Source: Prorocentrum cordatum (Eukaryota). Taken from it: a DNA stretch of 56,148 nucleotides. The stretch is taken from contig CAUYUJ010000109.1 of assembly GCA_963575745.1 (NCBI GenBank), forward strand, positions 62,001 through 118,148, in the 5' to 3' direction. Each line of letters begins with the position of its first letter. Positions within the stretch are counted from its first letter, which is position 1. The position numbers were made by a program, and so were the translations under genes. Positions 8,780 through 56,148 of this stretch are shown here, piece by piece. The notes under the pieces are model-generated. The model worked only from the letters and a program-made list of their open reading frames with translations. It did no database searches and was not told where the DNA came from.

Positions 8780-8994
8780 CCCGACGCGTTGCGTACGTGC
8801 ACCCTGGCAGTACTGGTATCCAGCTTCAGCCAGTCCCTTCACTCGTCGGTTCGCCGCCGAGGTGCTGCGTGAGGCTCCGCTCCGCCGCTTTAGGTGTGGC
8901 TGCGCCCCGTCGCTTTAGGTTAATTCGTCTCTGCGTGCCCCGCTTCTACTGGACCCGCCGCTGGCGCGCTCGCCTGCGACCGCTGACTAAAAAG
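8780..8994 (+). mobile_element. 3' end of a target-primed (non-LTR-type) retroelement, ending in a short A tract before TATCCCCACCAG
   Basis: CGCCGCTGGCGCGCTCGCCTGCGACCGCTGACTAAAAAG nearly matches 54520-54559 and is related to 54855-54890. The 5' boundary is undetermined. Confidence 0.6.
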
Positions 8995-9426
8995 TATCCC
9001 CACCAGCCCATCCAGAAACGACGCCCAGGCGAGTAGAGGGTCGTCCTGAGGGGCTTTACGGCGTATTGGGTGCCTCGGGGGGGCCTCCTGGGGGCCTCTT
9101 GGGGCCTCTTGGGGCCATCTTGGGGCCTCTTGGGGCCTCCTGGGCGCTTCTTGGGGCCATCTTGGAGGACATCGATCAAAGAAAAGGGGGAACTTGAATT
9201 GGGGTTGTCCCTTCAGGAGGCCAGCATGGGGCCCAAACCTCAAGAAAACCAATGATTTGGGCTTCCTTGCCGAGGCCGTTTTGGACGCCCTAACACCTGC
9301 CCGCCCCTCCCGTCCAGGTCCACGGGGAGGGGGTAGGGGGATGGGTAAACCCTCCCCGAAACGGCAGAGGGAGGGGTGGAAGAGGAAACGCCCTAAACAC
9401 CCGACGCCCAGAGGGCTGGTGGGATT
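8995..9426 (+). mobile_element. Dispersed non-autonomous repeat (Helentron/HINE-like), copy A
   Basis: 5' ATCCCCACCAGCCC and 3' GGGCTGGTGGGAT (9413-9425) are near-perfect inverted repeats; CCAGAAACGACGCCCAGGCGAG; internal GGGGCCTCTT-type repeats; GCCC-AGA-GGGC hairpin. Confidence 0.6.
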
Positions 9427-10088
9427 CCGTTCGGCGGCCCGACAAGTCGTGCGCCGCGGCGCCCCACGGCCAATGCCACCGCGCGCGGCAACGTCGGCCT
9501 CCACGGGCGCAGCGGGCAGGCGTGCCCCTGGTTCTCCAACGGGTGATCGGGTGCGACGCCTGCGATGGCGTGGCTCTCGGGTTGATAACGATCGAGGGTG
9601 CGCACGGCTGGACGGGCCGATCGCCCGGCACGCGCGAGCAGGAGGACGATCGGCGGCGCGAAGAGGAGCGAGGGCACCATGCCTCCGGGTTCCGTGCGGA
9701 CGCGAACCCGACCCCAGACTGGGGGTTCGACCGCGACGCCCCCTCCTTCGAGCCGCCGTCCAAGGAGCTGCCGAGCTGCATGGCTGGATGGGAAACGCGC
9801 CAGATCCCTGTCGGTGTAGCGGAGAGTCGGACCTTCCCGATGTCGAGATCGTGCGGACCGACTCCAGGTCCCGTCGCGGCTGCCAGAGGGGCGCTTTGTG
9901 GTCGGCGGGCGGTGGAATGGCGAGGGGAGCAGCCAGGTGTGGGTGTCTTGCTTGGACTTTGAGACCTTGCGGCCAGCGGCGGTGCTTCTGGACGGATAGC
10001 CCTGACCCGTGTTTTTCTTGCGAAGTCGTGCCCGTTCCCCGAACTCAGCCGCGCATTTGCACCAGCTCGTCGCTTCCGTCTCCCTCTA

Positions 10089-10300: not shown

Positions 10301-10333
<33 letters not shown>

Positions 10334-10373: not shown

Positions 10374-10466
<93 letters not shown>

Positions 10467-10523
10467 GGAGGAGGGGAGGAGGAGGAGGAGGAGGAGGAGG
10501 AGGAGGAGGATGAGGAGGAGGAG
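10091..10523 (+). repeat. (GAT)n/(GGT)n then (GGA)n microsatellite
   Basis: Directly visible. Confidence 0.97.
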
Positions 10524-12951: not shown

Positions 12952-14165
12952 AAGCTTAGCGTGTTCTCACAAGCGCATCCAGAAACGACGCCCACTCGAT
13001 TTGCCTTGATCAGGGAAGTGTAGGAGCGAGCAGTGGGATAAAGATGGGGCGCAGTCGTCAACGCGATACTCGGGATCAGCCTGAGCAGACCCAGGAGTTA
13101 ATAATAATGCCTTGGTTCATCTTTCGGTCTGGGAACTTCTTGCAAGCTCATTTCAGAATATCGTGGTACTCTCGGATGCATTTTGGAGGCCTTTGGGGCT
13201 CTTGGGGCCGTCTTGGGGGTGCCCTAGGGTCCTCGTGCTCCGATATAGGAGGCCATCGTTGAACAAAGGCTAGTTTTTTGCGCCTACCCCCGTCGTCGAC
13301 AGACCAATCGTTTACTGCGGCCCCGCTCTCGGTGCCCTCTTTGGGTCGTCTTGCCACCCTTACGGCTCCTTCTTGGGGACCTTGGACGATCTTGCAGCCA
13401 TCTTGAGATTTCGAAAGCCAATCGGAAGCGAAAAGATGAGAGTTACAAATACATCGAAACCAGTGCTTGTAATGAGAGTGGCCTCTCGGGGGCGTCCTTT
13501 GGAGACTCCGGGGTCACTTGGTGCCTTCTTGAGGTCCTCTTGGGTCCTCTATGCTGAAGATTATCTTGATCCAACTCGGGCCATCTTGCGCCATCTTGGA
13601 GGCAATTTTAAGGCATCTTGGGCTATCTTGGAGCCTTCTGCAAGACCGAGGGCATCAGCACGCGCTTTGTTTTTCAACACGGCTTTGTCTTTGAGCGACG
13701 TAGGGGTCCTTCCTTAGATCTCCCGAGTGAAGCCCGACGAATTGCATCTTGGGGCGCTCCGTCTTGGAGCCCTCCTGGGCCCTCCTTGGGGCTGTCTTGC
13801 AGTCATCTCGATGCATTAAAATTCCATTGGGAGCGAAATGTTAAGACATTCAACATGGAGCAACCTTCATATTTTAATAAGTTTGACATAGGGGCGTCCG
13901 TGGAAGGCTCGGTGGCTATTTGGAGCCGTCTTGGGGCCTCTAGGGGCCTCTCGGAGGCATGCTGGAAACCATCTTGAGCCATCTTGGGTTATCTTGTGAC
14001 ATCTTGAAGACCATCTTGTGTCATCCGCGGCCATCTTGGAGTCCTCTTGGGCCATCTTGCACGCTGCTACGGGTCCTCCCCCCGACAAGACCCAGGGTGA
14101 AGGGGAAGGGGGGAGGAGCCACGCTACTCCCCGAACGACGGCAGCCTCGCTCACTCCCACCCGCC
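12952..14165 (+). mobile_element. Diverged member of the same dispersed repeat family (copy D)
   Basis: AAGCTTAGCGTGTTCTCACAAGCGCATCCAGAAACGACGCCC aligns without gaps to ACGCTTCGCGTATCCCCACCAGCCCATCCAGAAACGACGCCC; internal GCCATCTTG repeats; CTCGCTCACTCCCACCCGCC near the end is shared with ~56126-56145. Confidence 0.5.
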
Positions 14166-15937: not shown

Positions 15938-15987
<50 letters not shown>

Positions 15988-16274: not shown

Positions 16275-16310
<36 letters not shown>

Positions 16311-16311
16311 C

Positions 16312-16355
<44 letters not shown>

Positions 16356-17053: not shown

Positions 17054-17128
<75 letters not shown>

Positions 17129-17136
17129 GGTGGTGG

Positions 17137-17175
<39 letters not shown>

Positions 17176-17204
17176 CGATGTTGATCATGATGTTGCTGAT
17201 GATG
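15285..17204 (+). repeat. Degenerate (GAT)n low-complexity tract
   Basis: Directly visible; includes a segment duplicated at 18512-19250. Confidence 0.95.
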
Positions 17205-17836: not shown

Positions 17837-17848
17837 TATCCCCACCAG

Positions 17849-18407
17849 CTGCAAAAGGTGGCAGCTTCCTCCCTGGCTCCTACACGCCCTGGGCGCTCTT
17901 CTGAGCGAGCGGCACGCCCAAACCTGCAAGGGCAAGTGCAGGAGCAAAGCAAGACGCCTGCTCCGCTCGATCGGCATGGGCGGTACGGCCTCCCCGCTTC
18001 TCTGGTGCATGGGCTACGACCCGCTGATAGAAGCCGTCGCCAACATTGCCGGTGACGCCAGCCCCGCATATGTCGACGACTTAGCGGCTCTTCTCGCATC
18101 TACGGGCCAGGTGCTACGTGCGGCCATTGCCCGCCCTCCCCTGGCTCGCCAAGGTGGCTGGCCTCCAGGTCGAAATTCGCATATGCAGAGGGATCCACAT
18201 GCCCTTCGACAGCCGCGTCACTCTCGCCCTGGCTGAAGTGCCCGTCACCCTGGAAGGTCGGGGCAACGAGATCTGCATCGCGGGCCGGCCCCCCGCCCTC
18301 ATCCAGGCCCTCGTCCTCGGCTTGCTCGGCCCAGCCTCGGCGGCTGCTTGCCGCCCCTGGCATGCCCCCTGCTTCTTCAGCTTCAAAACTGCACTGGTGC
18401 CCGCGAG
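17849..18407 (+). pseudogene. Reverse transcriptase fragment (non-LTR type), 5'-truncated and frameshifted
   Basis: RSIGMGGTASPLLWCMGYDPLIEAV...PAYVDDLAAL (YVDD at 18069-18080); continues in another frame (LAKVAGLQV...) and is cut by a GAT tract at ~18408. Confidence 0.8.
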
Positions 18408-20150
<1,743 letters not shown>

Positions 20151-21262: not shown

Positions 21263-21518
21263 GAGGCGGCTCCCTCCTGCTACTCTCTCTCTCCTCCTCC
21301 TCCTCCTCCTGCTCCTCCTCCTCCTCCTCCTCCTCCTTCTCTCCTCCTCCTTCTCTCCTCCTCCTCCTCCTCCTCCTCCTCCTCCTCCTCCTCATCCATC
21401 CCCCTCTGCCCTCCCGCCCTCCCCCATCCCTCGTTGTCGCTACGTCCCCCCGCCCCACATCTCTCATCCCTCCCTACTTCCTCCTCCCCTCTCCTCCCTC
21501 ATCCATCATCGAGGGCCA

Positions 21519-22968
21519 CCCACCCGACCCGTCCCGCCCGACCCGACCCGACCCGTCCCGCCCTTCAGGGTCCGCCCGCCCGCCGGACCCGTCCCGCCCG
21601 TTAGGGTACTCGCGTGCCAAGTCGATGGTGCATCATACTTTTATGTTCCGCCCGCCCGACCCGACCCGTCCCGCCCGTCAGTGTCCGCCCGCCCGACCTG
21701 GCCCGTCCCGCCAGTTAGGGTCCGCCCGCCCGCCGGACCCGTCCCGCCCGTTAGGGTACTCGCGTGCCAACTCGATGATGCATCATACTATAATGTCCCG
21801 CCCGCCCGACCCGACCCGACCCGCCCGTTAGGGTCCGCCCGCCCGACCCGACCCGTCCCGCCCGTCAGGTCCGCCCGCCCGACCCGTCCCGCCCGTTAGG
21901 GTACTCGCGTGCCAACTCGATGGTGCATCATATCTTTAATGTCCCGCACGCCCGACCCGACCCGTCCCGCCCGTTAGGGTCCGCCCGACCCGACCCGACC
22001 CGTCCCGCCCGTTAGGGTCCGCCCGCTCGCCGGACCCGTCCCGCCCGTTAGCGTATTCGCGTGCCATCTCGATGATGCATCATTAGTTTATATCCCGCCC
22101 GCCCGACCCGACTCGTCCCGCCCGTTAGGGTCCGCCCGCCCGATCCGACCCGGCCGCGTTTTAGGGTCCGCTGGCCCGCCGGACCCGTCCCGCCCGTTAG
22201 GGCATTCGCGTGACAACTCGATGGTGCGTCACATTTGATAATGTCCCGCCCGCCCGACCCGACCCGACCCGCCCGTTAGGGTCCGCCCGCCCGACCCGAC
22301 CCGTCCCGCCCGTCAGGGTCCGCCGGCCCGCCGGACCCGTCCCGACCGTTAGGGTACTCGCGTGCCAACTCGATAGCGAATCATTCTTTAATGTCCCGCC
22401 CGCCCAACCCAACCCGACCCGCCCGTTAGGGTCCGCCCGCCCGACCCGACCCGTCCCGCCAGTTAGGGTCCGCCCGCTCGCCGGACCCGTCCCGCCTGTT
22501 AGGGTACTCGCGTGCCAACTCGATGGCGCATCATTCTTTAATGTCCCGCCCGCCCAACCCGACCCGACCCGCCCGTCAGGGTCCGCATGCCCGACCCGAC
22601 CCGTCCCGCCAGTTAGGGTCCGCCCGCTCGCCGGACCCGTCCCGCCCGTTCGGGTACTCGCGTGCCAAGTCGATGGTGCATCATACTTTAATGTCCCGCC
22701 CGCCCGACCCGACCCGTCCCGCCCGTTAGGGTCCGCCCGACCCGATCCGTCCCGTCCGTTAGGGTTCGCCCGCCCGCCGGGCCCGTCCCGCCCGTTAGGA
22801 TATTCGCGGGCCAACTCGACGATGCATCCTACTTTACTGTCCCGCCCGCCCGACGCTCCCGGACACGACCCGCCCGTCAGGGTCCGCCCGCCCGACCCGT
22901 CCCGCCCGTTAGGGTACTCGCGTGCCAATTCGATGGCGCATCATACTTTAATGTCCCGCCCGCCCGAC
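21519..22968. repeat. Satellite, ~150 bp unit, 10 copies
   Basis: Core GTTAGGGTACTCGCGTGCCAACTCGATGGTGCATCATACTTTAATGTCC recurs at ~21601, 21751, 21896, 22048, 22197, 22349, 22499, 22649, 22795 and 22909, separated by CCCGCCCGACCCG subrepeats. Confidence 0.93.
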
Positions 22969-24259: not shown

Positions 24260-25314
24260 TAACAGTAGGAAGGGGAGGCAGGTTCGAGGTTCTGGGGTCT
24301 GGAGGGTTTTGGCCTTCCTCGGTCCCCGAGGGCTGTTTTCGGGCCCTGGGGCCGTCGAACACCGATCTGGGGTGAAAGCTGCGCAAGAGGGACCCCTCGG
24401 AGGGGTCTGGGGATGGATTTAGAGCGGATTTGGCCTTACCCCCCTCCTCTCTTGATAGATTTTCTCGGGGCCCAGCCAGCTCCTCAGAGCCCCTGGCCGC
24501 CTCCAACGTGAGCCAGGCTCTGTCGATGCCGAGGTTCAAGCTGGGGATGACGAGTGCGGGAACGAGCCGCGCGTCGCCCATTTGGCTCACGCCACGTGTG
24601 GAGCAGGGATCTCACTGCAAAGACACTTCGGATAGGCGTCCGTATCCCGAGGTGTCTCTGTGGCCCCGATCACGGTGTTCGACGGCGAACGCACTGCAAG
24701 CTAGAAGCAACACACACAGTAACGCATTCGGGGTGCACGACCAGCTGGTGGCATCTTAGGCGGTGCGTTCGACGGCGCTCTGGCAGCTGGACCATTCGGA
24801 GTCATGGCAGCCACGGCTTCAGGATCTTCGGGAGGGCAGGAACACAACGAGGATACGGGTAAGATGTGGCCGATGAGGTGCTCATCGGCTACGGAAGCAT
24901 CGAGCACGAGTCGTTGCCGTCGCAGTTGGGCCTTCAGAAACCCAAATGCGCTACAATGAAATCTCGGGCGAGAACGCCATCCCTGGAAACGGGGCATCTC
25001 TGGCTAAGTCGGCTCGGAGTCAGTCGAAAGGAAGTATCGAACGTGAGGCGTCGTTGTCGAAGTTGGACCTTCACCAGCTTGAAGGAACTGCGAGAAATTC
25101 TCTAGCGAGAAGGCACTCTTGAGTTGGGCCTGCAGAGACCACGGCTCACGACCAGCCGTGTGCGCTGACAAAAAGTACGACGTCGGAGGTCTCGGTACCT
25201 GCCTTTCCCTGGCTCGCCCTAGGGACCTTCGTGTGAGTATTCTCACAGTCGACGCAGTCGTGGCATGACGGGCGAGTGCCGAAAACCCGCGGCCTGGTGG
25301 CCACTCCACGGGCG

Positions 25315-25890
<576 letters not shown>

Positions 25891-25959
25891 ACGACCAGAA
25901 GAACCCAGGATATATCAACGATGCTGCAACACTCCCCCCTGTCCGGGTCCTCTCGTCGT

Positions 25960-28661: not shown

Positions 28662-29662
28662 ACGCTTCGCGTATCCCCACCAGCCCATCTCAAAACAGCA
28701 ACTCTAGCGAAGCATGCCGACAGTCGTGTTTTTCAGGCGTGTTTCCGCCTGCCCCCACATATCTCCCCTGTTCCTCCTTCCTCCCGCCTCCTTGTACATC
28801 CTCCTTGTGGTGGGAGCGGGAGAAGGACGAGGCGGAGGAGGAGGGAGAGAAAGCGCTCCTCGTGGTTTGAGTCGTTTGGGGTTTCTCGTCCTGGTGTGAG
28901 TCGTTCGGGCCCTTCTTCCTGGTGTGAGTCGTTCGGGCTCTTCGTGGTGTGAGTCGTTCGGGCTCTTCGTCCTGGTGTGAGTCGTTCGGGCTTCTCGTGG
29001 TGTGAGTTGTTCGGGCCCCTCGTCCTGGTGTGAGTCGTTCGGGCCCCTCCTCCTGCCCGTCCAGAAACGACGCCCAGGCGAGTAGAGGGTCGTCCTGATG
29101 GGCTTTTCGGCGTCTTGGGTGCCTCGGGGGGGCCTCTTTGGGCCGTTTGGGATCCTCTTGGGGGCCTCCTGGGGGCCTCTTGGGGCCATCTTGGGGCCTC
29201 TTGGTGCCTCCTGGGCGCTTCTTGGGGCCATCTTGGAGGAAATCGATCAAAGAAGAGGGGAGCTTTAATTAGCGCTGCCCCCTCAGAAGGCCAAAATGGG
29301 GCCAAAACCTTAGTAAAATCAATGATTTTGGCTTGAAAGAAGAGGGGAGCTTTAATTAGCGCTGCCCCCTCAGAAGGCCAAAATGGGGCCAAAACCGTGG
29401 TAAAATCAATGATTTTGGCTTCAAAGAAGAGGGGAGCACTTTTCTGCCTCCCCCCGTCGGGGCCAGAATCCTCGTGAGGGGTGTCGTTTTTTAGCCCCCC
29501 CAGGAGTCGAAAAAGACCCCCCCCAACGACCCGCGGGGCGCCCTCTCCAGGCCCAGGGGGAGGGGGTAGGGGGAGGGGCAAACCCCTCCCCGAAGGGGAA
29601 GAAGGGGGTTGAGAACAGAGCGGGCTCTCTAAACCACTCACGCCCAAAGGGCTGGTGGGATT
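28662..29662 (+). mobile_element. Dispersed Helentron/HINE-like repeat, copy B, with an unoccupied TATCCCCACCAG site
   Basis: ACGCTTCGCGTATCCCCACCAGCCCATC at 28662; CCAGAAACGACGCCCAGGCGAGTAGAGGGTCGTCCTGA at 29061; 87 bp internal tandem repeat (29249, 29336, 29423); 3' GCCC-AAA-GGGCTGGTGGGATT. Confidence 0.6.
28859..29048. repeat. 25-28 bp minisatellite, ~7 copies
   Basis: TGGTGTGAGTCGTTCGGGC repeated. Confidence 0.9.
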
Positions 29663-30396
29663 CTCCATTGAGGGCCCCCCCTCTTGAGAAAAGATACCGC
29701 CATCTATCCTTATAGCTATTTCGAACTCTCACATGTGGTAATCCATGCTGATGAAGTATTCGGCGATACCGTTTTTGAAAAGGAACCGTGCTCCATCTGT
29801 GTAGCTGTTGGGCTGCTGGATGTGAGTGTGCACGGCGCCAAGGCGAGAGCACCATTTTGAAAAAGGACTTCCATCCGAGGAGATCCTTGAGTTTTTCAAG
29901 ACGAGTCTGCAAGGCGCTGGGGCGAGAGTCCCATCTTGAAAGCGGCCCGCCCGCAATAGGTATGGCTGCTGAAAATCTTTAGTTGAGAGCGCGCGGCGCC
30001 AAAGCAGGAACCCCATTGCGAACGACTGGTGGAGTGGATCCCAGTGGCTCCCGCTCCTCCTCCTCCTCCTCCTCTTCCTCCTCTCCACGCCATCCCAGTG
30101 GCTGGTGGAGTTTGTCAAGACGAGACTGCACGGCAACCGACGCGAGAGCTCCGTTTTGAGAACGGCCTGCCCTCCAAACGTGGAATCGTCGGAGGTTCCG
30201 GGCCTCAAGATCGTGCGCGGTGAGGAGCCTTCAGGCGAAACATCCAGAGCGCCCGAACGGCACGTCTGGTGGTGGATTCTTGTAAAAGGGCGAGGGATGG
30301 AGAAGGGAGGGGAATGAGCATAGAGAATTAGGGGGAGGGAGGAGGATGCGGCGAGTGGAGACGAGGAGAAGGATGAGGATTAGGAGAAGATGAAGC

Positions 30397-30428
<32 letters not shown>

Positions 30429-30532
30429 AAGAAGAAGAAGTAAAAGTAGAAACACAAGTTCAATTATACGCAGACACATAAGTATAAGTATAATTATACG
30501 TATACGTAACATTGTATCTTCAATAATAATAT

Positions 30533-30609
<77 letters not shown>

Positions 30610-30770
30610 AGTAGTAGTAGTAGTAGTACTAGCCGTGGTAGTAGTAGTAGTAGTAGGAGTCGTTGTAGTCGTAGTCGTGGTCGTAGTCGTTATCGAAGTT
30701 GCAGTAGTCGTACTCGTAGTTGTAGTAGTCGTAGTAGTAGTCGTAGTCGCAGTAGTAGTCGTAGTAGTCT

Positions 30771-30806
<36 letters not shown>

Positions 30807-31001
30807 CAGTAGTAGTAGTGGTTGTTGTTGTTAGTAGTAGTAGTATTAGTGGAAGCCGTAGTAGTAGTAGTAGTAGTAGTAGTAGTAATGGTAGTAGTAG
30901 TAGTAGTAGTAGTAGTAGTCGTCGTAGTAGTAGTAGTAGTAGTCGTCGTAGTAGTAGTAGTAGTAGTCGTGGTGGTGGTGATGGTGGTGGTGGTGGTTGT
31001 G

Positions 31002-31074
<73 letters not shown>

Positions 31075-31271
31075 CCGTAGTAGTGGTACTAGTAGTAGTA
31101 GTAGTAGTAGTAGTAATAATGGTAGTGGTAGTAGTAGTAGTAGTAGTAGTCGTCGTCCTAGTGGTACTGGCATTCGTAGTAGTGTTAGTATTAGTATCAG
31201 TATTTGTATTAGTCTGCGTATTCTTAGTAGTGTCTGTAGTAGTAGAAGTTGTAGTAGTAGTAGTAGTTGTT

Positions 31272-31323
<52 letters not shown>

Positions 31324-31382
31324 TAGTAGTAGTACTATTAGTAGTAGTAGTGGGTGTGGTAGTAGTAGTAGTAGGAGTAGTT

Positions 31383-31465
<83 letters not shown>

Positions 31466-31496
31466 CGTAGTCGTAGTAGTAGTAGTAGTAGTAGTA

Positions 31497-31572
<76 letters not shown>

Positions 31573-31916
31573 AGGAAATAGTAGTAGACGGAGTTACCGC
31601 AGTCTCAGTCTCTAGTAGTAGTAGTAGTCGTAGTAGTAGCAGAAGAGGTAGTAGTAGTAGTAATCGTATTCGTAGTCGTAGTAGTCGTAGTAGTCGTGGT
31701 AGTAGTTGAAACACCAGCCGTAGTAGCAATAGAATTAGTAGTAGTGGTGGTAGTAGTAGTAGCAGTAGTAGTAGTAGTAGTAGTAGTCGTAGTCGTAGTG
31801 GTAGCAGTAGTAAGTGTAGTAGTCGTAGTAGTAATCGTAGTAGTATTCGTATTCGTAGTAGTAGTAGTAGTAGAATACTAGTAGTGGTAGTAGTCTGGGT
31901 AGTGGTAGTATTAGTT

Positions 31917-31955
<39 letters not shown>

Positions 31956-31994
31956 ATAGTAGCAGTAGCAGCAGTAGTATTCGTAGTAGTACTC

Positions 31995-32048
<54 letters not shown>

Positions 32049-32132
32049 ATAGTAGTAGTAACCGTTGTAATCGTAGTAGGGGGGTAGTAGTAGCAGTCGC
32101 AGAAATAGTAGCAGTACATATTCGTAGTATTC

Positions 32133-32190
<58 letters not shown>

Positions 32191-32256
32191 AAGTAGTAGT
32201 AGTAGTCGTCGTAGTCGTAGTCGCAGTCGTAGTCGTAGTAGTAGTAGCAGCTGCAT

Positions 32257-32289
<33 letters not shown>

Positions 32290-32655
32290 CCATAGTAATA
32301 GTAGTAGTAGTCGTATTAGTAGTAGTCGTAGTAGTAGTAGTAGTAGTAGTAGTAGTCGTCGTCGGTGGAAAAGTAGTACTAGTAGTTGTAAAAGTAGCAG
32401 TACTAGTGGTAGCAGCAGTAGTAGTAGTAGTAGTAGTAGTAATAGTAGTAGTAGTAGCAGTCGTAGCAGTAACATTAGTAGTGGTAGTAGTATTTGTAGT
32501 GCTAGTAGTGGTAGTAGTCGTAGTAGTAGTAGTAGCGGTAGTAGTAGTAATTTTTGTAGTAGCAGTAGTAGTTATAGTAGTGGTAATATCGGTAGTCGTA
32601 TTAGGGGTAGTCGTAGTCGTAGTCGTGGCAGGCGTATTCGTAGTAGTAGTAGTAG

Positions 32656-32698
<43 letters not shown>

Positions 32699-32765
32699 CA
32701 CTAGTAGTACTGGTCGTACTACTACTACTGCTACTAGTAGTAGTTGGGTAGTAGTAGTAGCAGTC

Positions 32766-32800
<35 letters not shown>

Positions 32801-32914
32801 CGTAAAAGTAGTAGTTGTAGGCGTAGTAGTAGTAATAGTAGAAGTAGTGGTAGCCGTCGTCGTCGGTGAAGTAGTCGTAGTAGCAGTAGTAGTAGTAGTA
32901 GTAGTAGTACATGC

Positions 32915-32945
<31 letters not shown>

Positions 32946-32951
32946 ATCGTC

Positions 32952-32992
<41 letters not shown>

Positions 32993-32993
32993 C

Positions 32994-33036
<43 letters not shown>

Positions 33037-33037
33037 C

Positions 33038-33083
<46 letters not shown>

Positions 33084-33084
33084 C

Positions 33085-33121
<37 letters not shown>

Positions 33122-33553
33122 CGTAACCGTATTTCTCGTAGTAGTAGTACCACTCGGCGTAGTAGTTCTCGCAGTAGTAGTAGTGGTAGTCGTAGGTGTA
33201 GTTTTAGTAGTAGCTGTGCTTGTAGTAGTGTTAGTAGTAGTGCTCGTAGTAGTATAGTAGTAGTGGTAGCTGTAGTGGTGGTAGTCGCCGAATTCGTAGT
33301 TGCAGTAGTAGTACTAGTTGTAGTACTAGTAGTAATCGTTGTGGTAGCAGCAGGAGTAGCAGTAGTCGTAGGTGAAGTAGTAGTACTAACCGTACTAATA
33401 GTCGTAGTCGTTGGATTCGTGGTGGTGGTGGTAGTCGTAGTAGTAGTAGTAGTCGCCAGCCGTAGTCATAGTGGTAGTAGTCGTAGCTGTAGTAGTGGTA
33501 GTAGTGTTAGTGTTAATGGTCGTTGTGGTAGTAGTAGCAGTAATAGAAGTCGC

Positions 33554-33604
<51 letters not shown>

Positions 33605-33608
33605 CGTC

Positions 33609-33642
<34 letters not shown>

Positions 33643-33665
33643 TAGTAGTAGTCGTAGTAGTAGTC

Positions 33666-33710
<45 letters not shown>

Positions 33711-34134
33711 CTAGTAGTGGTGGTGGTGGTGGTGGTGGTGGTAGTAGTAGTCGGAGCAGTCGTAGTAGTCGTAGTAGTCGCGGTAGTAGTAGCAGTAGTG
33801 GAAGTAGTAGTTGTAGTAGTAGTAGTAGTATAGCAGTAGTAGTGGTGTAGTAGTGGTGCTAGTGTAGTAGTTAGTAAGTGTAGCAGTGTAGTAGTAGTAG
33901 TAGTAGTAAGTAGTAGTCGTAGTAGTCGTAGTCGGTAGTGTAGTAGTAGTAGTAGTCTAGTAGTAGTGCAGTAGTAGTAGTAGTAGTAGTAGTGGTGGTA
34001 GTAGTAGTAGCAGCGTCGTAGTAGTAGTACAGTAGTAAGGTTGTAGCCGTGGTAGTCGCAGCAGTCGGTGTAGTAGTCGAGTAGCAAGTTCTTGTCGTAG
34101 TCCAGTAGTATAGTAGTCGTAGTAGGTAGTAGTG

Positions 34135-34167
<33 letters not shown>

Positions 34168-34398
34168 TAGTATAGTAGTAGTAGTAGTAGTAAAGGGAGT
34201 AGGGTTAGTAGTAGTAGTGTAGTAGTAGTAGAGTAGTAGTAGTAGTCGTAGTAGTAGTATTAGTAGTAGTAGTAGTAGTAGTCGTATTAGTCGCAGTAGT
34301 AGTAGTAGTCGTAGGGGTGGCCGTAGTAGTAGTAACACTGGCAGTCGCAGTAGCCGTAGTAGCGGTAGCCGTAGCCGTAGTAGTAGTAGCAGCAACAC

Positions 34399-34437
<39 letters not shown>

Positions 34438-34467
34438 TAGTAGTACTTGTAATCGTAGTAGTAGTAA

Positions 34468-34500
<33 letters not shown>

Positions 34501-34660
34501 GCGAAGTAGAAGCAGTAGTAGTAGCAGTCGTAGTAGTAGTCGTAGTAAACGTGACACTGCTAGCAGTTGCCGTGGTAGTGGTGGTTTCTATTAATCGTTG
34601 TTGTGGTGGTCGTAGTGGTAGTTCTAGTAGTAGTAGTCGTGGTGATACCAGCAGTAGTAA

Positions 34661-34728
<68 letters not shown>

Positions 34729-34739
34729 TAGTAGTAGTG

Positions 34740-34823
<84 letters not shown>

Positions 34824-34883
34824 AGTAGTAGTAGTCGTAGTAAGTAGTAGTAGTAGTAAGTAGTAGTAGTAGTAGTCGTAGTC

Positions 34884-34939
<56 letters not shown>

Positions 34940-34946
34940 CGTAGTC

Positions 34947-35016
<70 letters not shown>

Positions 35017-38129: not shown

Positions 38130-38550
38130 GTTCACTTGCGCTCGTTGGCCTCGCTGGCGGTGCTGGGGCAGCCCCGTGTACTGCAGCGTCGCCGTCGGGC
38201 GCCTGGCCATTTTGGCCTGCCATCCTGGCCTCATCTCGCGCCTTCTTGCGCTAGTAGGCTTGGGTGGCGGTGCTGGGGTCGCCCCGTGCGCTGCTATGCT
38301 GTCGCCGGCGCCTTACTTTTTGCTGTAGGGACCAGCTGCCCTCGGCCAGGCGCCAGTTGCTGCATGCACGTCTGACCCGCCCTTGGCTTGCCACCCAGGC
38401 CTAGCCTCGCGTCTTCCCGCGCTAGTCGGCCTGGGTGGCGGTGCTGGGGTCGCCCCGTGTGCTGCTGTGCCGTTGCTGGCGCTTCACCCTGGGCTGTTGG
38501 CCCAACTGCCCACGGTGCGAGCGCCTGACGTTGCAAGCATGTCAGACCCG
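38130..38550. repeat. Diverged tandem repeats downstream of the Cys-rich ORF
   Basis: GGCGGTGCTGGGG..GCCCCGTG at ~38155, 38265 and 38437, with longer colinear similarity between the last two. Confidence 0.75.
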
Positions 38551-38656
38551 CCCTTTCACCCAGAAGAGGTGCGCGCTACATACTGGCAATGAGGCAGCCA
38601 CAAGGACGCTCTTCCCTAGGTGGTTGAGCCGTGGTGATGTGGTGCACGAGACCGCC

Positions 38657-38693
38657 AGTAGTAGTAGTAGTAGTAGAAGTAGTAGTAGTAGTC

Positions 38694-38785
<92 letters not shown>

Positions 38786-38867
38786 CGTAGTCCGTAGTCG
38801 TAGTCGTAGTCGTAGTCGTAGTCGTAGTCGTAGTCGTAGTCGTAGTCGTAGTCGTAGTCGTAGTCGT

Positions 38868-38899
<32 letters not shown>

Positions 38900-39849
38900 T
38901 AGTAGTAGTAGTCGTCGTATAGAGTAGTAGTAGTAACTAGTAGAGTAGGGGGGGGAGTGGTATAAGTAGTAGTAGTAGTAGTATAGTAGTAACTAGTGGT
39001 AATAGTCGTAGTAGTAGTATGTAGTAGTGGCAGTAGTAGTAGTATAGTGCTGAAATATAGTAGTAGTAGTAGTAGTAAGTCGTAGTAGTAAGTAGTATTA
39101 AGTAGTAGTAGTCGTAAGTATGTTGTTTGTAAGTAGTAGTAGTAATAGTAGTAGTAAGTAAGTAGTGTAGTAGTGTATTAAAGTTAGTAGTAGTACGTAG
39201 TTAGTAGTAGTAAGTAGTCGAGTGGTAGTAGTGTAGTAGTAGTAGTAGTAGTAAGTTTGTAGCAGCAGCAGTCAGCGCAGCAGTAGTAGAAGTAGTAGTA
39301 GTAGGAGTAGAGAGTAGACTAGAGTATAGGAGGTAGAGTATAGTAGGAGTCATGAGTGAGGAGTGAGTAGGAGTATTAGTAGTAGTAGTAGTAGTAAGTA
39401 GTGGTAAGCTAGTGGGAATAGTAGTAGTAGTAGTAGTATTAGTGGTAGTAGTAGTAGTAGTAGTAGCCGTCCGTAGTAGTAGTAGTAGTAGATAGTAGTA
39501 GTAGTATAGTAGTATTAGGGAGTAGTAGTATTAAAAGTGGTAGTAGTAGTAGTAGTAGTAGTAGTCGTAACAGCAGCGTATAGTAGTAGTAGTAAGTCGT
39601 GGTAGTAGTAAGTAGTAGTAAGTAGTAGTAGTAGTAGTAGTTAGGAGTCGTAAGTAGTAGTAGTAGTAGTAGTATTATAGTATATTATTACAATAAGTGA
39701 GTTTAGTCGTAGTCGTAGTCGTAGTCGTAGTCCGTAGTCGTAGTCTGTCTCGTCGTCGTTTGTCGTCGTCGCGTCGTAGTCGCAGTCGTATCCGCAGTCC
39801 GTAGTCCGTCGTCGTAATCGTAGTAGTAGTAGTAGTAGTAGTAATAGTA

Positions 39850-39895
<46 letters not shown>

Positions 39896-40082
39896 CGTAG
39901 TAGTAGTAGTAGTAGTAGTAGTAGCAGCATCAGTAGTAATAGTAATCGTAGTAGTAGTACTAGTACTAGTATAGTAGTAGTAGTCGTAGATAAGTAGTGA
40001 GTAGTATGTAGTAGTAGTAGTAGTAGTAGTAGTCGTAGTCCTAGTAGTAGAGTAGTGAGTAGTAGTAGTAGTAGTATTAGTA

Positions 40083-40113
<31 letters not shown>

Positions 40114-40367
40114 CGTAGTAGTAGTAGTAGTAGTATGTAGTAGTAGTAGTAGTCGAGTAGGGAGTAGTAAGGTAGTGATAAGTAGTAGTAGTATTAGTAG
40201 TTAGTAGCAGTTTTTAACAAAACAACACAAAAAAAAAAGTAGGTTCCGTAGTAGTCGTAGTAAGTAGTATAAGGTAATTGTAGTGCAGTAGTAGTAGTAG
40301 TAGTAGTAGTGGTGGGTGTAAAGTAGTAGTAGTAGTATTAGTAGTAGTAGTAGTATTAGTAGTAGTC

Positions 40368-51450: not shown

Positions 51451-52934
51451 TACTTACTAACGGGTACTTTGAATTTTTGCTGAGAGTTGCCATTTTAGGG
51501 CCTTTTTCTTGCATTGCAGCTTTGCCCACATCGGGAAGGGTTGGGTTCGCTGGGTCACTGGCCAAAGTACCCGTTAGTGGAGTCCTCGTTTGAGGGGCGT
51601 TGAGCTCTCTTCGAATCTGAAGGTGCCCACTGGTCGTCGAAAGTATGTCTTTCTGGAGTCCCAGATTCCAATCTGCTTTCAACGCCTTCCTGCTCCAGTG
51701 ATCGATTGTCTGCACCTTTTCCGTCCTCTTTCGGGGGCGGGCGGACACCCAATCTATTTTCAACGCCTTCCTACTTCATTTTTCTGCTACTTCTTCCGAC
51801 CGATGGGTCGGGCACTGGCCTGGTGTGTGGCAGGAGGAGGTCCCTGCGCGCCTCCAGGCTTGTCCTCTTCGTGTATGTCTGCCGCTGTGCCCCCCCGTGC
51901 TCGTCGAGTAAGTCTGGCCAGGCCGGAATGCCCGACAGTGCCGTTTTTAATACATGCTCCGCGTGCGGATCATGTATTACATTTCAGGGTTTTAGTGCTA
52001 AAGGCAACGATGAGTTCATGCATAAGTTTATTAACGCATCAGTCATGTATCAAACATCCTACGTTTTTCAACATCCAATGTGCTAAAAACTGCCCTGTAC
52101 TCTGGGAGAAGCCCGAGGGACTGAGGGGCCCATGTCGAGGTGTCTGCTGGGCAGGCCTCCGGACATGCTCTGCGACAGAGCTCCTGCTCGGGGAGGGTCC
52201 ACAGCCGGGCGCTCTCCGCGCGGCCACCTGGATGACCGCGGGGCCGTGGCCCGGGGCACGCCACCCCAGCTCGGCCGCGGCCACGCCTGCGTTTCGCCAG
52301 GCGTCGGCTTCGAGGAGTTGTCGGGGGTGGACAGAACCCCCAACAGTGACACGTCGATTAGTGCATTGTCCGTTTTCGGTTCTCGAGAGGGCGCCGCGGC
52401 CGTTATTTTCCAGGCTTGCGCCCGCCAGGTTTGGGCCTCAGGTCGTTTTCACCAAACCACGTTTTACTAAAGGGAGGCCTGTCCATCCCCGAGAATGCAA
52501 GGGCCCACGAGTCATGGGCTCGGTTCAGGAGCTGGTCTGCTCCTGGACATACTCCCAGGAGCCACCGGCCAAACCTCAGCCCTCCTTCCACGACTGACTC
52601 GAGAATTCCCATTGCCGCCCCCAACGGTAGAGTGCCTCGGGCGACTTGACCTGCCAGACTGGCTACTTTTGCACTGGCTGCCCCAAGGCGCTAAGAGAGC
52701 AAGGCGAGATCGCTGCGCCACGGCAGCCCTGGCCACCGATGCTGCGTGACTCTTCCCACGTCTTCTCGACTTTGCTCCACGAGGCCAAAGTGCAGGGCCT
52801 GCCACTGCGGTGGTTGCACGTGGTGCTCGCCGCCTCCAGCAACCATTGCCGCGTGCTTTGTCGTTTTGTGCGTTGCCTTGTACTTCTGGGCCCAGGCCGC
52901 CATCTTCGCGAATGCCGCCTGGGGGGGTGGGGCA

Positions 52935-53165
52935 GGAGGAGGGGGACGAGAAGGAGGAGGAGGAGGAGGAGGAGGAGGAGGAGGAGGAGGAGGAGGGCGA
53001 GGAGGAGGAGGAGCAGGAGCAGGAGCAGGAGGAGGAGGAGAAGGAGGAGGAGGAGGAGGAGGAGGAGGAGCAGGAGGAGGAGGAGGAGGAGGAGGAGGAG
53101 GAGGAGGAGGAGGAGCAGGAACAGAAGCAGGAACGCGAGGCGGCGGAGGAGGAGCAGGAGCAGGA
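52935..53165 (+). repeat. (GGA)n microsatellite
   Basis: Directly visible. Confidence 0.95.
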
Positions 53166-54322
53166 AGGCTCACGGGCCCGGCGGCGTACCGGGTCTGGCT
53201 GACTCTTGCCACTTACCCAGGGGTAACGGAAGCTACAGACTACTGGGTTCGGGGGCGGGCGAGAGACCCGCGCCGCCGCCGGCGGAGAAGGAGGAGGAGG
53301 AGGACGAGGAGGAAGAAGAGCAGGAAGAGATGAGCGAGAAAAAGTGGGGCAGGTGATGGAGGAAGAGGGAAAGGGTAATTATGTTCGGAGGTTGATAGAC
53401 CTCCTACCCTGACGCGTCGATTGGTGAATTGGCCGTTTTCGGTTCGCGAGAGGGCGTCGCGGCCGTCATTTTTGCGGGTCCAGGTCCGTCGGTTTCGGTC
53501 TTGTGCCACTTTCGCTAGAGGGTGTTTTTTTTTTTTTTTTCAAATGGAGGTTTGTGCACCGCCGATATGTGAAGCGAGAGGGAGGGCGGCGGAGGACGAA
53601 CATGAAGAGGACACTAGTAAACTCAATATGCATCGACGACTCTGCAACACACCCCCGTCCAATGTGCCCTCCCCATACGTCCCTACAGCATGGCTTCCTA
53701 ATTGCAGGAAGGCTTTTTCTGATATACACTCATGGACCTGCCATTCAGGCGATAGCTTCGTTTTGAATTTCGGCAAAAAAGGACTTGCATTCTTCGAGTG
53801 TGTGCTACGGAATGAGCCACTAGTATGATCGTAGTGTTCAGCCAAGTGTCTAGCGATTTGAGGATCGTTCTTACTTGTTCAATTCTTGCACGCGATTTCA
53901 CTTGAGGCCTTTAGCGCCCAGGAAGTCTCACACGAGAGCCGTATTTGGTGAAGAAGTTGGCATCCGTACTTACAGTTGTATCATAGATCAACAAATCTCT
54001 GGCAACCGATCAAATTTGAAAAGTATACGTGTTTCATCGGCGCAGCTTTTGCATCTGCTCAAGTGTCTGGGCGCTAGCTCCATATTCGTTCAAGCGATAC
54101 ACCACTATGGAGAAAACAGCTAACCATCCCAGCTGCAAGCTTTCAAGACGAATGTACGCGGCGTTAGGGCGAGCACCCCATTGGCTAAAGGGGCAGCTAT
54201 TCATTGAGGAAAACGCGACAAACATTTGAGACTATTGCGAGCGGCGCGAAGGCGAGAGCGTGAGTTTGAAGAGACTCGCCTCCTATCCTCGAAATGCTAG
54301 ACGCTTCGCGTATCCCCACCAG

Positions 54323-54559
54323 TTCGTTTATGTCCCGACTTCCTAGCGCCTTCGACGTACCTGCATCTTTGCACGCTGGCAGTTCCACTCAGTTTCAGTT
54401 TCTCCTGCCACCCGCCCGCCGCTGGGCCGCTGCGTGAGTCCTCGGCTTGCCGCGTTAGTTGTCGCCTTGCGCGCCGCCTCTGCCTAAGTAGTCTCTGCAT
54501 AACCCGCTTGGACCTGACGCGCCGCTGGCGCGCTCGCCCGCGGCCGCTGACTAAAAAAA
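54323..54559 (+). mobile_element. 5'-truncated retroelement 3' end with A tail, flanked by ~12 bp TSD
   Basis: Lies between TATCCCCACCAG (54311) and TATCACCGCCAG (54560); ends CGCTGACTAAAAAAA; similar to 8790-8994. Confidence 0.7.
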
Positions 54560-54571
54560 TATCACCGCCAG

Positions 54572-54890
54572 TACGCCCTCAGCGGTCACTTGTCAGCTTC
54601 GCCGTCTGTGACCTTGCCGCGCCATTTTGGCTGCGTATAGCTCCTTGGTTCAATTTGTGCATCGGCACTGCCCCCGGATCCGGGTCCTGGTTGCAGTTTG
54701 CATCGCCCGTCGGCAAGGTTTCGGGCCCTGCCCCGCTTCCTGGCACCATCTCGCGCAGCCCGGCAGCTTAGGCAGCTTAGGCAGCTTAGGTTCGGCCGTC
54801 GGTCCCCGTGCGCTCGGCAATTAGTTTCGCGCGTTGCCCGCCCGACCTCTGACGCTGCTGGCGCGCTCGCTTGCGGCCGCGACGAAAAAC
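54572..54890 (+). mobile_element. Second 5'-truncated retroelement 3' end, flanked by ~12 bp TSD
   Basis: Lies between TATCACCGCCAG (54560) and TACCCCCGCCAG (54891); ends CTGGCGCGCTCGCTTGCGGCCGCGACGAAAAAC. Confidence 0.65.
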
Positions 54891-56148
54891 TACCCCCGCC
54901 AGCCCGCCCAGAAACGATGTCCAGGCGAGTTGATATGATCATGGAAATGCGGCAGCAAAGAGGGGGGCGGCCGAACCGTGCAAAGGAGTGAGGAGGAGAA
55001 GGAAAAGGTGGATGGATGGACGGATGAGGGAGTGAGAAGAATGAGCAGGATGATGGGGAGGTGGCGGGGGAGGAGGAGGCGGAGGAGGAGGGGGAAGAAA
55101 CGGAGCAGGAGGAGGAAGGAGGAACAGGAGGGAGGGAGAGGAGGAGGAGGAGGAGGATGAGACGAGGAGGAGGGCAAGCACAAGGGCCAGAGGTCTCTTG
55201 GATGCCTCTCCGTTTCTTGGTGGCCTCTTGGGACGTCTTGGGGGTCTCTTCGCGATCCTGGGGGACTCGTCGGGGTCTCGGGTGCCTCGTGGGGGCCTAT
55301 TGGGGCCGCTTGGGGTCTTCTGGGGGGGGGCCTCCTGGGGGCCTCTTGGGGCCATCTCGGGGCCATCTTGCGACCTCTTGGGGCCTCCTGGGCGGGCTCT
55401 TCGGGGTCTTGGGTGCCTCGGGGGGGGGGGGCCTCTTGGGGTCCTTTTGGGGCCCCCAGGGGGCCTCTTGGGGCCATCCCAGGGCCATTTAGGGACCTCT
55501 TGTGGCTTCCTGGGCGGGCTCTTCGGGGTCTTGTGTGCCTCGGGGGGGGGGGGCTCTTGGGGCCGCTTGGGATCCTTTTGGGGGCCTCCTGGGGGCCTCT
55601 TGGGGGCCTCTTGGGGCCATCCCGGGGCCATCTTGGGACCTTTTGTGGCCTTCTGGGCGCTTCTTGGGGCCATCTTGGGTGAGATCGATCAAACAAGAGG
55701 GGGGCTTTCATTAGGGCCCCCCCACCCTCAGGAGGCCAAACAAAATGGGCGAACACCCTAGTACAACCAGTGATTTTGGCTTCCGTGCCGAGGCCGTTTT
55801 GGACGCCCTGACACCTCCTGAAGCCCCCTGTCCAGGTCCAGGGGAGGGGGTCGGGGGAGGGGGAGGGGTAAACCCTTCCCCGAATGGGAAGGAGGAGGGG
55901 TGGAAGAGGAACCCCCCTAAACCACCGACGCCCGAAGGGCTGGTGGGATTACCGTCCCCCCCCTTCAAAACGCCAAAATGGGGCCAAAACCGTAGTAACA
56001 CCAATGAGTTTGGCTTCCTCGCCGAGGCCGTTTTGGACGCCCCGACACCTCGCGAAACTCCCTGTCCAAGTCCAGGGGAGGGGGTCGGGGGAGGAGTCAA
56101 GACCCCCCACCGCCCGCAGGCCGTCTCGCTCACTCCCACCCGCCCTCC

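What the first reader, a model, noticed from the sequence alone, without database searches (positions are those of the whole stretch)
54301..54930. Sequence-specific retroelement stacking at TATCCCCACCAG inside another transposon's terminus
Seen: the empty site is ACGCTTCGCG-TATCCCCACCAG-CCCATC (28662; diverged at 12952). At 54301 the same left flank is followed by the 12-mer, a 237 bp insert ending in A7, a second 12-mer variant, a 319 bp insert ending AAAAAC, a third variant, then the normal right flank CCCGCCCAGAAACG. The inserts share a 3' end (CTGGCGCGCTCGC...GCCGC) with the element ending at 8994. Known: variable 5' truncation, an A tail and a ~12 bp TSD mark target-primed reverse transcription, and site-specific LINEs usually target rDNA, snRNA, SL RNA, telomeres or microsatellites. 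Inference: a family that targets the subterminal repeat of an abundant DNA element, regenerating its target with each insertion.
Basis: partly seen in the sequence, partly recalled or inferred. Interest (0 to 1): 0.75.

Follow-up and report, generated by a model that had tools for sequence, protein, structure and literature searches.

The report
Two retroposons stacked at one site
Two short, A-tailed retroposon copies sit head to tail in the same 12-base site of a very abundant repeat, each flanked by a copy of that site; this pattern is already known from other site-specific retroposons, so it is a new example rather than a new principle.

Summary
At 54301 the flank ACGCTTCGCG is followed by TATCCCCACCAG, a 237-nt insert ending in A7, TATCACCGCCAG, a 319-nt insert ending AAAAAC, TACCCCCGCCAG, and then the normal right flank. 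Sites without an insert lie at 28662 and, diverged, at 12952.

Both inserts and the element ending at 8994 share a 3' tail of about 40 nt with a conserved stem-loop. In 3 of 3 cases the tail is followed by the 12-mer and the same repeat.

The two inserts match each other only over the last ~45 nt. They are therefore separate insertions of tail-sharing families, not a local duplication. They are also not shown to be 5'-truncated copies of one element.

The window holds no reverse transcriptase or endonuclease, so the copies are non-autonomous.

The target lies in the left arm of an 11-nt inverted repeat of a ~430-bp repeat. In public contigs that repeat is laid about 12 to 50 times deeper than the tail. 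That it is a DNA transposon is unproven.

Best reading (0.65): double target-primed insertion with a 12-bp target duplication. This is known from ingi/L1Tc, SINEU/Tx1-Mar and R1. It is a new member of a known kind; interest 0.4.

The parts
54301..54310 (+). conserved left flank of the target (ACGCTTCGCG), part of the host repeat's left side
   Evidence: Exact at 54301 and 28662 only. Alignable for about 25-30 nt upstream among 54311, 28672 and 12962. The same letters lie between two host-repeat units in a public contig (table 5c).
54311..54322 (+). first copy of the 12-bp target (TATCCCCACCAG)
54323..54559 (+). insert 1: a 237-nt non-autonomous retroposon copy ending CTAAAAAAA
   Evidence: Its last ~145 nt are 77% identical to 8852-8994. 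The tail stem-loop lies at 54521-54544.
54560..54571 (+). second copy of the target (TATCACCGCCAG, 2 mismatches)
54572..54890 (+). insert 2: a 319-nt non-autonomous retroposon copy ending CGAAAAAC
   Evidence: It shares only the last ~38-45 nt with the other two copies, at 84-87%. The tail stem-loop lies at 54854-54877.
54891..54902 (+). third copy of the target (TACCCCCGCCAG, 2 mismatches)
54903..55951 (+). rest of the host repeat at this locus: right flank CCCGCCCAGAAACG..., expanded GAG and GGGGCCTCTT-type repeats, and the right inverted-repeat arm at 55937-55949
8852..8994 (+). 3' part of a third copy of the retroposon family; its 5' end was not found
   Evidence: tail stem-loop at 8957-8980
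8995..9428 (+). 12-mer plus a near-consensus host repeat unit; inverted-repeat arms at 8999-9009 and 9413-9423
   Evidence: very high depth in public contigs
28662..28689 (+). site without a retroposon: left flank, 12-mer, CCCATC
12952..12987 (+). old, diverged site without a retroposon (AAGCTTAGCG TGTTCTCACAAG CGCATC CAGAAACG)
17837..17848 (+). orphan exact 12-mer after an A-rich end, not followed by the host repeat; its membership of the family is not shown
   Evidence: A profile built from the three sure tails scores 17813-17828 at E = 94.

Best explanation
Two separate target-primed reverse-transcription events put two different short, non-autonomous (SINE-like) non-LTR retroposons into the same 12-bp site, TATCCCCACCAG. 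The site lies in the left inverted-repeat arm of a very abundant ~430-bp repeat.

Inferred mechanism. An endonuclease encoded elsewhere nicks the bottom strand at the GCG|TAT boundary and the top strand 12 bp further on, at CAG|CCC. The reverse transcriptase recognises the ~40-nt tail shared by these RNAs (a GC-rich stem-loop, then GAC and a short A run) and copies the RNA from the nick. Repair duplicates the 12 bp. Each insertion therefore leaves a usable target on at least one side, which allows a second hit and produces the target-insert-target-insert-target stack.

Shown: the anatomy, the sites with and without inserts, the shared tail, the independence of the two inserts, and the abundance of the host repeat.

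Inferred: the nick positions, the role of the stem-loop, and the existence of an autonomous partner.
For: - There is one more 12-mer than there are inserts at 54311/54560/54891. The flanks are the same as at the sites with no insert at 28662 and 12952.
- 3 of 3 sure tails in the window (8994, 54559, 54890) are followed at once by a 12-mer variant and the same right flank.
- The ends are A-rich (A5-A7) and all copies have the same orientation as the target.
- The tail is conserved and forms a stem-loop of 9 pairs (12 predicted pairs in the tail alignment). 3 of the 12 pairs carry a compensatory change, but every such change is in the doubtful 17836 sequence.
- Insert 1 and insert 2 match only over ~45 nt (84%), whereas insert 1 matches the 8994 copy over 145 nt (77%). 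So the stack is not a local duplication.
- In public contigs, depth falls going upstream from the tail. Run X1: 1163, 146, 34 in successive 61-nt bins. Run X3: 603, 44, 6. This is as expected for a tail shared by many copies or for 5'-short copies.
- The tail and the host repeat are also laid in a run with a different organism code (X3). One X3 contig covers 8939-9013, that is the tail and 19 letters past the junction. That is below the tool's 31-letter rule for bridging (table 8).
- Tandem retroposons separated only by the TSD are documented. For the ingi clade the TSD is 12 bp (PMC3820030, passages and section 3.3 read). SINEU-3 is another case (PMC4494074, passages). For R1 and TEs in general see PMC5932611 (passages).
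Against: - The 5' copy of the 12-mer is seen at one locus only. Upstream of 8994 no 12-mer (up to 2 mismatches) and no left flank (up to 1 mismatch) exist on the + strand.
- The exact 12-mer at 17837 follows an A-rich end but is not followed by the host repeat and has no upstream partner. This would fit a 12-mer carried by the element.
- The three 12-mers at the stack differ from each other at 2 positions each, so they give no order of events.
- No reverse transcriptase or endonuclease is found in the window. Pfam was run on 136 ORFs of 120 aa or more (of 221; the 85 most repetitive were left out). It was also run on 57 of the 85 selected ORFs of 55-119 aa, covering 1-9252 and 17696-18080.
- No tRNA, 5S, 7SL or snRNA-like head is found.
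- The insert bodies are not shown to be related.
- Genome-wide flanks could not be tabulated.
Confidence: 0.65

Rival explanations
1. The 12-mer travels with the element. The source RNA runs through into the target sequence (or starts with it). Integration is then guided by pairing between the element-borne 12-mer and the repeat's 12-mer. The extra copy would be copied from the RNA and would not be a staggered-cut duplication.
For: - An element-borne 12-mer gives the same target-insert-target layout as a TSD.
- The exact 12-mer at 17837 follows an A-rich end at a place without the host repeat and has no upstream partner.
- The 8994 copy has a perfect downstream 12-mer but no upstream one.
Against: - The sequence before 17837 is not a significant family member (E = 94 with a profile of the three sure tails).
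- The 5' ends of the 8994 and 17836 sequences are simply unknown.
- The sites with no insert show that the 12-mer belongs to the repeat.
Confidence: 0.15
2. There was no retroposition at this locus. The stack arose at the DNA level, by unequal crossing-over, gene conversion or segmental reshuffling among copies of a composite repeat that already carried tail-plus-12-mer modules.
For: - The host repeat is extremely abundant, internally unstable and sometimes tandem.
- All tail and repeat copies in the window lie on one strand.
Against: - The two inserts share only ~45 nt, so neither is a copy of the other.
- Exchange between 12-bp homologies is inefficient.
- The clean flanks equal the sites with no insert.
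Confidence: 0.1
3. The 12-mer is a shared 5' leader of several retro-copied transcripts (both inserts, the host repeat, and the unit starting at 17837). These would have been laid down one after another, each ending in an A run.
For: The layout can be parsed as (12-mer + body + A run) repeated. That parse also accounts for the 12-mer at 17837, which sits after an A-rich end.
Against: - It gives no reason why units should land exactly between the conserved left flank and the repeat's own 12-mer.
- No known leader was found. A recalled dinoflagellate spliced-leader motif has 0 matches at up to 3 mismatches.
- The 12-mer is part of the repeat's inverted repeat.
Confidence: 0.05
4. The inserts are rolling-circle (Helitron-like) elements. 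They have a GC-rich hairpin about 14 nt before the 3' end, a T follows each end, and a helicase gene lies upstream of 8994.
For: - Hairpin near the 3' end.
- All ends are followed by T.
- An SF1 helicase ORF lies at 1396-3297.
Against: - The 12-bp direct duplication is not made by that mechanism, and the ends are not TC...CTRR (both are recalled features of the family).
- The helicase matches AAA_11/AAA_12 (Upf1/DNA2-like). No Rep domain and no PIF1 family appear among its Pfam matches.
Confidence: 0.03

Closest known systems
ingi/L1Tc-clade retroposons of trypanosomatids and their short partners (RIME, NARTc, SIDER)
   Same: - A TSD of fixed length, 12 bp.
- A conserved motif just upstream of the first nick.
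- Short non-autonomous partners.
- Tandem arrangements 'only separated by the 12-bp TSD'.
All from PMC3820030, passages and section 3.3 read.
   Different: - In the ingi clade, specificity is relative and the TSD sequence varies. Here the TSD is one fixed word inside a repeat.
- No reverse transcriptase is available here to place the family.
- The conserved 5' signature of that clade was not tested.
- The organism is unknown.
SINEU-3 and Tx1-Mar in crocodilians (target Mariner-N4_AMi), and Tx1 in Xenopus (target Tx1D)
   Same: - A LINE/SINE system that homes to a fixed site inside another interspersed repeat.
[quoted passage not shown]
- The SINEs are linked to the LINE by the target preference they share with it.
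From PMC4494074, passages read. The Tx1/Tx1D statement is that paper's citation of Christensen et al. 2000, which I could not read.
   Different: - The TSD there is 16 bp and the elements have snRNA-derived heads. No such head is found here.
- The host repeat here is not shown to be a DNA transposon.
- The clade cannot be tested without an RT.
R1 tandem arrays, and the double-insertion model of TE dimers
   Same: Two insertions at one preferred site leave the duplicated target between the copies (PMC5932611, abstract and passages read).
   Different: There the same element inserts twice, and the target is rDNA. Here two different tail-sharing elements insert, and the target is a dispersed repeat.

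Membership tests
non-LTR retroposon inserted by target-primed reverse transcription | A-rich 3' end joined directly to the target | tested here: met
   The ends are CTAAAAAG, CTAAAAAAA and CGAAAAAC. Each is followed at once by the 12-mer.
non-LTR retroposon inserted by target-primed reverse transcription | target-site duplication flanking the insert, with matching sites that have no insert | tested here: met
   Met at the 54311-54902 locus, against the sites at 28662 and 12952. Not met for the 8994 copy, whose 5' junction was not found.
non-LTR retroposon inserted by target-primed reverse transcription | reverse transcriptase and endonuclease ORFs (autonomous element) | tested here: not met
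   No RVT or endonuclease family was found among the ORFs scanned. The copies are therefore non-autonomous, and the partner is outside the window.
non-LTR retroposon inserted by target-primed reverse transcription | copies that are 5'-truncated versions of one element | tested here: inconclusive
   Head similarities are not above shuffled controls: score 28 against a mean of 19.9 and a maximum of 36, and score 23 against a mean of 18.7 and a maximum of 28. Contig depth does fall going upstream from the tail.
SINE | head derived from tRNA, 7SL, 5S or snRNA, with an internal promoter | tested here: not met
   Rfam gave 0 matches at gathering score on the whole window, and 0 matches at E up to 1 on 54200-55000. 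ARAGORN found 0 genes. On 8300-9500 the only match was a weak mir-7180 hit, below its threshold, inside the minisatellite.
SINE | 3' tail shared with a partner LINE | not testable with these tools
   The tail is shared among three short copies. No LINE is on hand and no genome is held.
Tx1 clade or ingi clade | placement of the reverse transcriptase and the APE-type endonuclease in that clade | not testable with these tools
   There is no RT or EN sequence in the window.
target-specific retroposon | most copies genome-wide lie at the same target | tested here: inconclusive
   3 of 3 copies in the window do. Public contigs show tail and repeat together but give no table of flanks. The metagenome scan gave 0 true copies in 87 loci.
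MITE / DNA transposon (the host repeat) | terminal inverted repeats | tested here: inconclusive
   An 11-nt perfect inverted pair, CCCACCAGCCC/GGGCTGGTGGG, is found at two copies. Homology ends just after the right arm. On the left, however, homology runs ~25-30 nt beyond the arm, and units can be head to tail.
MITE / DNA transposon (the host repeat) | target-site duplication flanking the element, and a related transposase-bearing element | not tested
   No clear flanking duplication was seen by eye, and there is no transposase in the window.
Helitron | insertion without duplication; Rep plus Pif1-type helicase | tested here: not met
   A 12-bp duplication is present. The helicase is AAA_11/AAA_12 type, and no Rep was found. 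The defining features are recalled.

The most novel reading that the evidence does not exclude
This is an undescribed lineage of target-specific retroposons in a GC-rich, repeat-rich, probably marine eukaryote. It homes to one 12-bp word in the inverted-repeat arm at the unit boundary of a hyper-abundant repeat. It rebuilds its target at each hit, so arrays can grow. It is kept together with its target in at least two organisms. Recognition may be helped by the hairpin that the two arms can form where repeat units abut.
Probability: 0.3. Interest if true: 0.6.

Novelty: new member of a known kind. Interest (0 to 1): 0.4.

Why it matters
Retroposons that home to a repeat avoid genes and can build arrays. 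They also mark a sequence-specific endonuclease that might be worth characterising.

Here the target is a repeat laid thousands of times deeper in public contigs than the unique DNA beside it. If that depth reflects copies, the partner enzyme has a very large safe harbour.

The principle itself, TSD-separated stacks at a preferred site and targets inside other repeats, is already in print. The value of this finding is a new family and host, and a clean textbook-like example.

Tried and rejected
- **Whole genome:** none is held.
- **Metagenome scan:** the tail pattern returned 87 loci. 0 of 87 had the 12-mer downstream, and all look like chance matches in GC-rich contigs.
- **Other collections:** the host-repeat 22-mer found 0 loci in genome contigs and 0 in viral contigs.
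- **Earlier findings of this scan:** nothing by place, sequence or words.
- **Sequencing runs:** no RNA holder is listed. The best holder has 0.21 of the sampled words.
- **Laying contigs:** the loose-end table shows only 24 of about 1000 rows, none of them at 8994-9007. The flanks of tail copies therefore could not be tabulated.
- **Six-frame translation of 1-8994:** It was replaced by an ORF-by-ORF scan. 28 of the 85 selected short ORFs, those at 28-30 kb and 53-55 kb, were not sent.
- **Dinoflagellate idea:** the recalled spliced-leader motif has 0 matches. An 11-nt core has 5 matches at up to 1 mismatch against 0.58 expected, but this identifies nothing.
- **Protein atlas:** no usable hit on the 18117-18962(-) ORF.
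- **Helicase homologues:** all are distant (at most 36% over 23% of the query, or 26% over 60%) and do not name the organism.
- **17836 as a fourth family member:** rejected as unproven.
- **Homology of the insert heads to 8300-8900:** rejected.
- **Paper search for the 12-mer and the inverted-repeat words:** 1 unrelated hit.
- **Christensen et al. 2000:** not held.
Full report
**Observation**

ACGCTTCGCG (54301-54310) is followed by TATCCCCACCAG (54311-54322). Next comes a 237-nt insert ending CTAAAAAAA (54323-54559), then TATCACCGCCAG (54560-54571). Next comes a 319-nt insert ending CGAAAAAC (54572-54890), then TACCCCCGCCAG (54891-54902). The sequence then continues CCCGCCCAGAAACG.

The same left flank, 12-mer and start of the right flank lie uninterrupted at 28662-28689. 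They also lie, diverged, at 12952-12987.

An element ending GACTAAAAAG at 8994 is followed by the exact 12-mer and the same right flank.

The exact 12-mer occurs four times, always on the + strand. With up to 2 mismatches there are 14 matches against 5.46 +/- 2.26 in shuffles. The right-flank 22-mer occurs 4 times against 0 expected. This is far beyond chance.

**The inserts**

A profile built from the last 60 or 100 nt of the three copies ending at 8994, 54559 and 54890 finds only those three in the window.

They share CTGGCGCGCTCGC..GCGRCCGC.GAC followed by a short A run. The consensus fold puts this in a stem-loop of 9 pairs, about 14 nt before the end. In the tail alignment, 3 of the 12 predicted pairs have a compensatory change. 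All of those changes come from the doubtful fourth sequence, so covariation is not established.

Insert 1 matches the 8994 copy over 145 nt at 77%. Insert 2 matches either of the others only over the last 38-45 nt, at 84-87%.

The 5' parts do not match anything in 8300-8900 above shuffled controls. The scores were 28 against a shuffle mean of 19.9 and maximum of 36, and 23 against a mean of 18.7 and maximum of 28.

So the two inserts are not copies of each other, which argues against a local duplication. They are also not demonstrably 5'-truncated versions of one element. They look like different short RNAs that carry the same tail.

Pfam finds no reverse transcriptase or endonuclease in the ORFs scanned:
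- 136 of the 221 ORFs of 120 aa or more; the 85 most repetitive were left out.
- 57 of the 85 selected ORFs of 55-119 aa, covering 1-9252 and 17696-18080.

Rfam and ARAGORN find no small-RNA head.

The sequence ending at 17836 has an A-rich end and is followed by an exact 12-mer. It scores E = 94 with the three-copy profile and is not followed by the host repeat. I treat it as an unexplained orphan.

**The host repeat**

The target belongs to a repeat of about 430 bp. It runs from roughly 25-30 nt left of the 12-mer to GGGCTGGTGGGATT. It has four main copies in the window, all on the + strand.

CCCACCAGCCC, which overlaps the 12-mer, and GGGCTGGTGGG at the far end form a perfect 11-nt inverted pair at two copies. 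The inferred top-strand break, CAG|CCC, falls inside the left arm.

Homology ends right after the right arm. On the left it continues. By eye, the left flanks at 12952 and 28662 carry remnants of the repeat's own right end.

One contig of run X3 joins position 9427 to 8996 through 15 letters that equal the left flank. Units can therefore lie head to tail (table 5c).

The repeat also contains an expandable GGGGCCTCTT-type minisatellite. Its class (MITE, satellite-like or other) is open. 'Another transposon's terminus' is plausible but not shown.

**Evidence from outside the window**

No genome is held.

I laid contigs of four public runs on 7700-9500 at 80% likeness. The tool warns that summed contig depth is no copy number, so these figures are ratios only. 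The tail column is the bin 8920-8980. The repeat column is the bin 8981-9041, which holds the last 14 nt of the tail, the 12-mer and the start of the repeat.

| Run | Depth over tail | Depth over start of repeat |
|---|---|---|
| X1 | 1163 | 37,692 |
| X3 | 603 | 29,110 |
| X2 | 131 | 1,925 |
| X4 | 250 | 3,094 |

In X1 the unique-looking parts of the stretch are laid at about 3 (bins 8249-8309 and 8371-8431), and one contig there matches with no differences.

Depth falls steeply going upstream from the tail: 1163, 146, 34 in X1.

The tail and the repeat are both present under a second organism code (X3) and in runs labelled as metagenomes. One X3 contig covers 8939-9013. That is the tail and 19 letters beyond the junction, which is below the tool's 31-letter criterion for bridging.

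The table of loose ends is cut to 24 of about 1000 rows, so the flanks of tail copies could not be tabulated.

A scan of metagenome contigs with the tail pattern gave 87 loci, and 0 of the 87 were true copies. Scans of prokaryote genomes and viral contigs with the repeat's 22-mer gave nothing.

**Mechanism**

The simplest account is double target-primed retroposition:
1. An endonuclease encoded elsewhere nicks the bottom strand at GCG|TAT.
2. Reverse transcription starts on an RNA recognised through its tail.
3. The top strand is cut 12 bp downstream.
4. Repair duplicates the 12 bp.

After one insertion the upstream copy keeps the left flank and the downstream copy keeps the right flank, so a second hit can follow. 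The three 12-mers differ pairwise at 2 positions each, so the order of the two events cannot be read.

The main rival is that the downstream 12-mer is copied from a read-through RNA rather than from the target. That reading would also explain the orphan at 17837 and the missing upstream copy for the 8994 element. It cannot be separated from the TSD reading with one informative locus.

**Comparison with what is known**

- In the ingi/L1Tc clade the TSD is always 12 bp and a conserved motif precedes the first nick. Tandem elements 'only separated by the 12-bp TSD' are frequent (PMC3820030, passages and section 3.3).
- In crocodilians, SINEU-3 and Tx1-Mar LINEs insert into a fixed site of Mariner-N4_AMi, and tandem SINEU-3 copies sandwich a TSD. 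According to that paper, Tx1 of Xenopus inserts into the Tx1D transposon (PMC4494074, passages).
- Double insertion at a preferred site is the accepted origin of TE dimers, R1 being the classic case (PMC5932611, abstract and passages).

The finding therefore works like these systems. Membership of any clade cannot be tested without the reverse transcriptase.

**Verdict**

This is a new member of a known kind. Confidence in the retroposition reading is 0.65 and interest is 0.4.

Noticed in passing
window 28684-29061: At the site that has no retroposon, 366 bp of other DNA lies between CCCATC (28684) and CCCGTC (29056), before the host repeat resumes. This DNA has no A tail and ends in about 5 copies of a GTGTGAGTCGTTCGGGC-type unit. 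It may be a second kind of insertion with a 6-bp duplication, a few bases from the 12-mer.
   Followed up: partly
window 17837-17848: An exact copy of the 12-mer follows an A-rich end (CCAACCAAGAAG) and a GCGGCCGCCGAC word. It is followed by unrelated, locally unique sequence, and no upstream partner was found.
   Followed up: partly
window 1396-3297 (+): A 634-codon open frame has an SF1 helicase core (AAA_11, AAA_12, AAA_30, AAA_19). It has only distant relatives (at best 36% over 23%, or 26% over 60% of the query). It lies in a 65% G+C block with many + strand frames that runs up to the retroposon tail at 8994.
   Followed up: partly
window 30300-35000 and 38500-40300: Blocks several kb long of GTA-type trinucleotide repeats with almost no C on the + strand (G+C 0.41-0.43, GC skew 0.52-0.64 in the 30001-34000 bins). 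GAG and GAT blocks lie elsewhere: 10000-10600, 15400-17200, 19600-20000, 25300-25900 and 52900-53200.
   Followed up: no
window 21392-22889: A tandem array with a period of about 150 bp, with 8 overlapping 300-nt matches at 62-92% identity to the reference copy.
   Followed up: no
window 16241-16847 and 18407-19002: Two blocks about 2.16 kb apart are 93-95% identical. ORFs on the - strand in this area have weak membrane-protease-like Pfam matches below threshold (PFF1_TM at 18117-18962, DUF2207_C at 16955-17485).
   Followed up: no
window 9039/9040, seen in public contigs: Many contigs leave the host repeat right after ...CCAGGCGAGTAGAG and continue with a second version (TGATCAGGGAAGTGCGGGAGC...), which is the form seen at 54930 and 13000. 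The first ~60 nt of the repeat, including the target, are therefore shared by at least two variants. That part is laid 3-8 times deeper than the repeat's non-minisatellite body (bins from 9164 on).
   Followed up: partly
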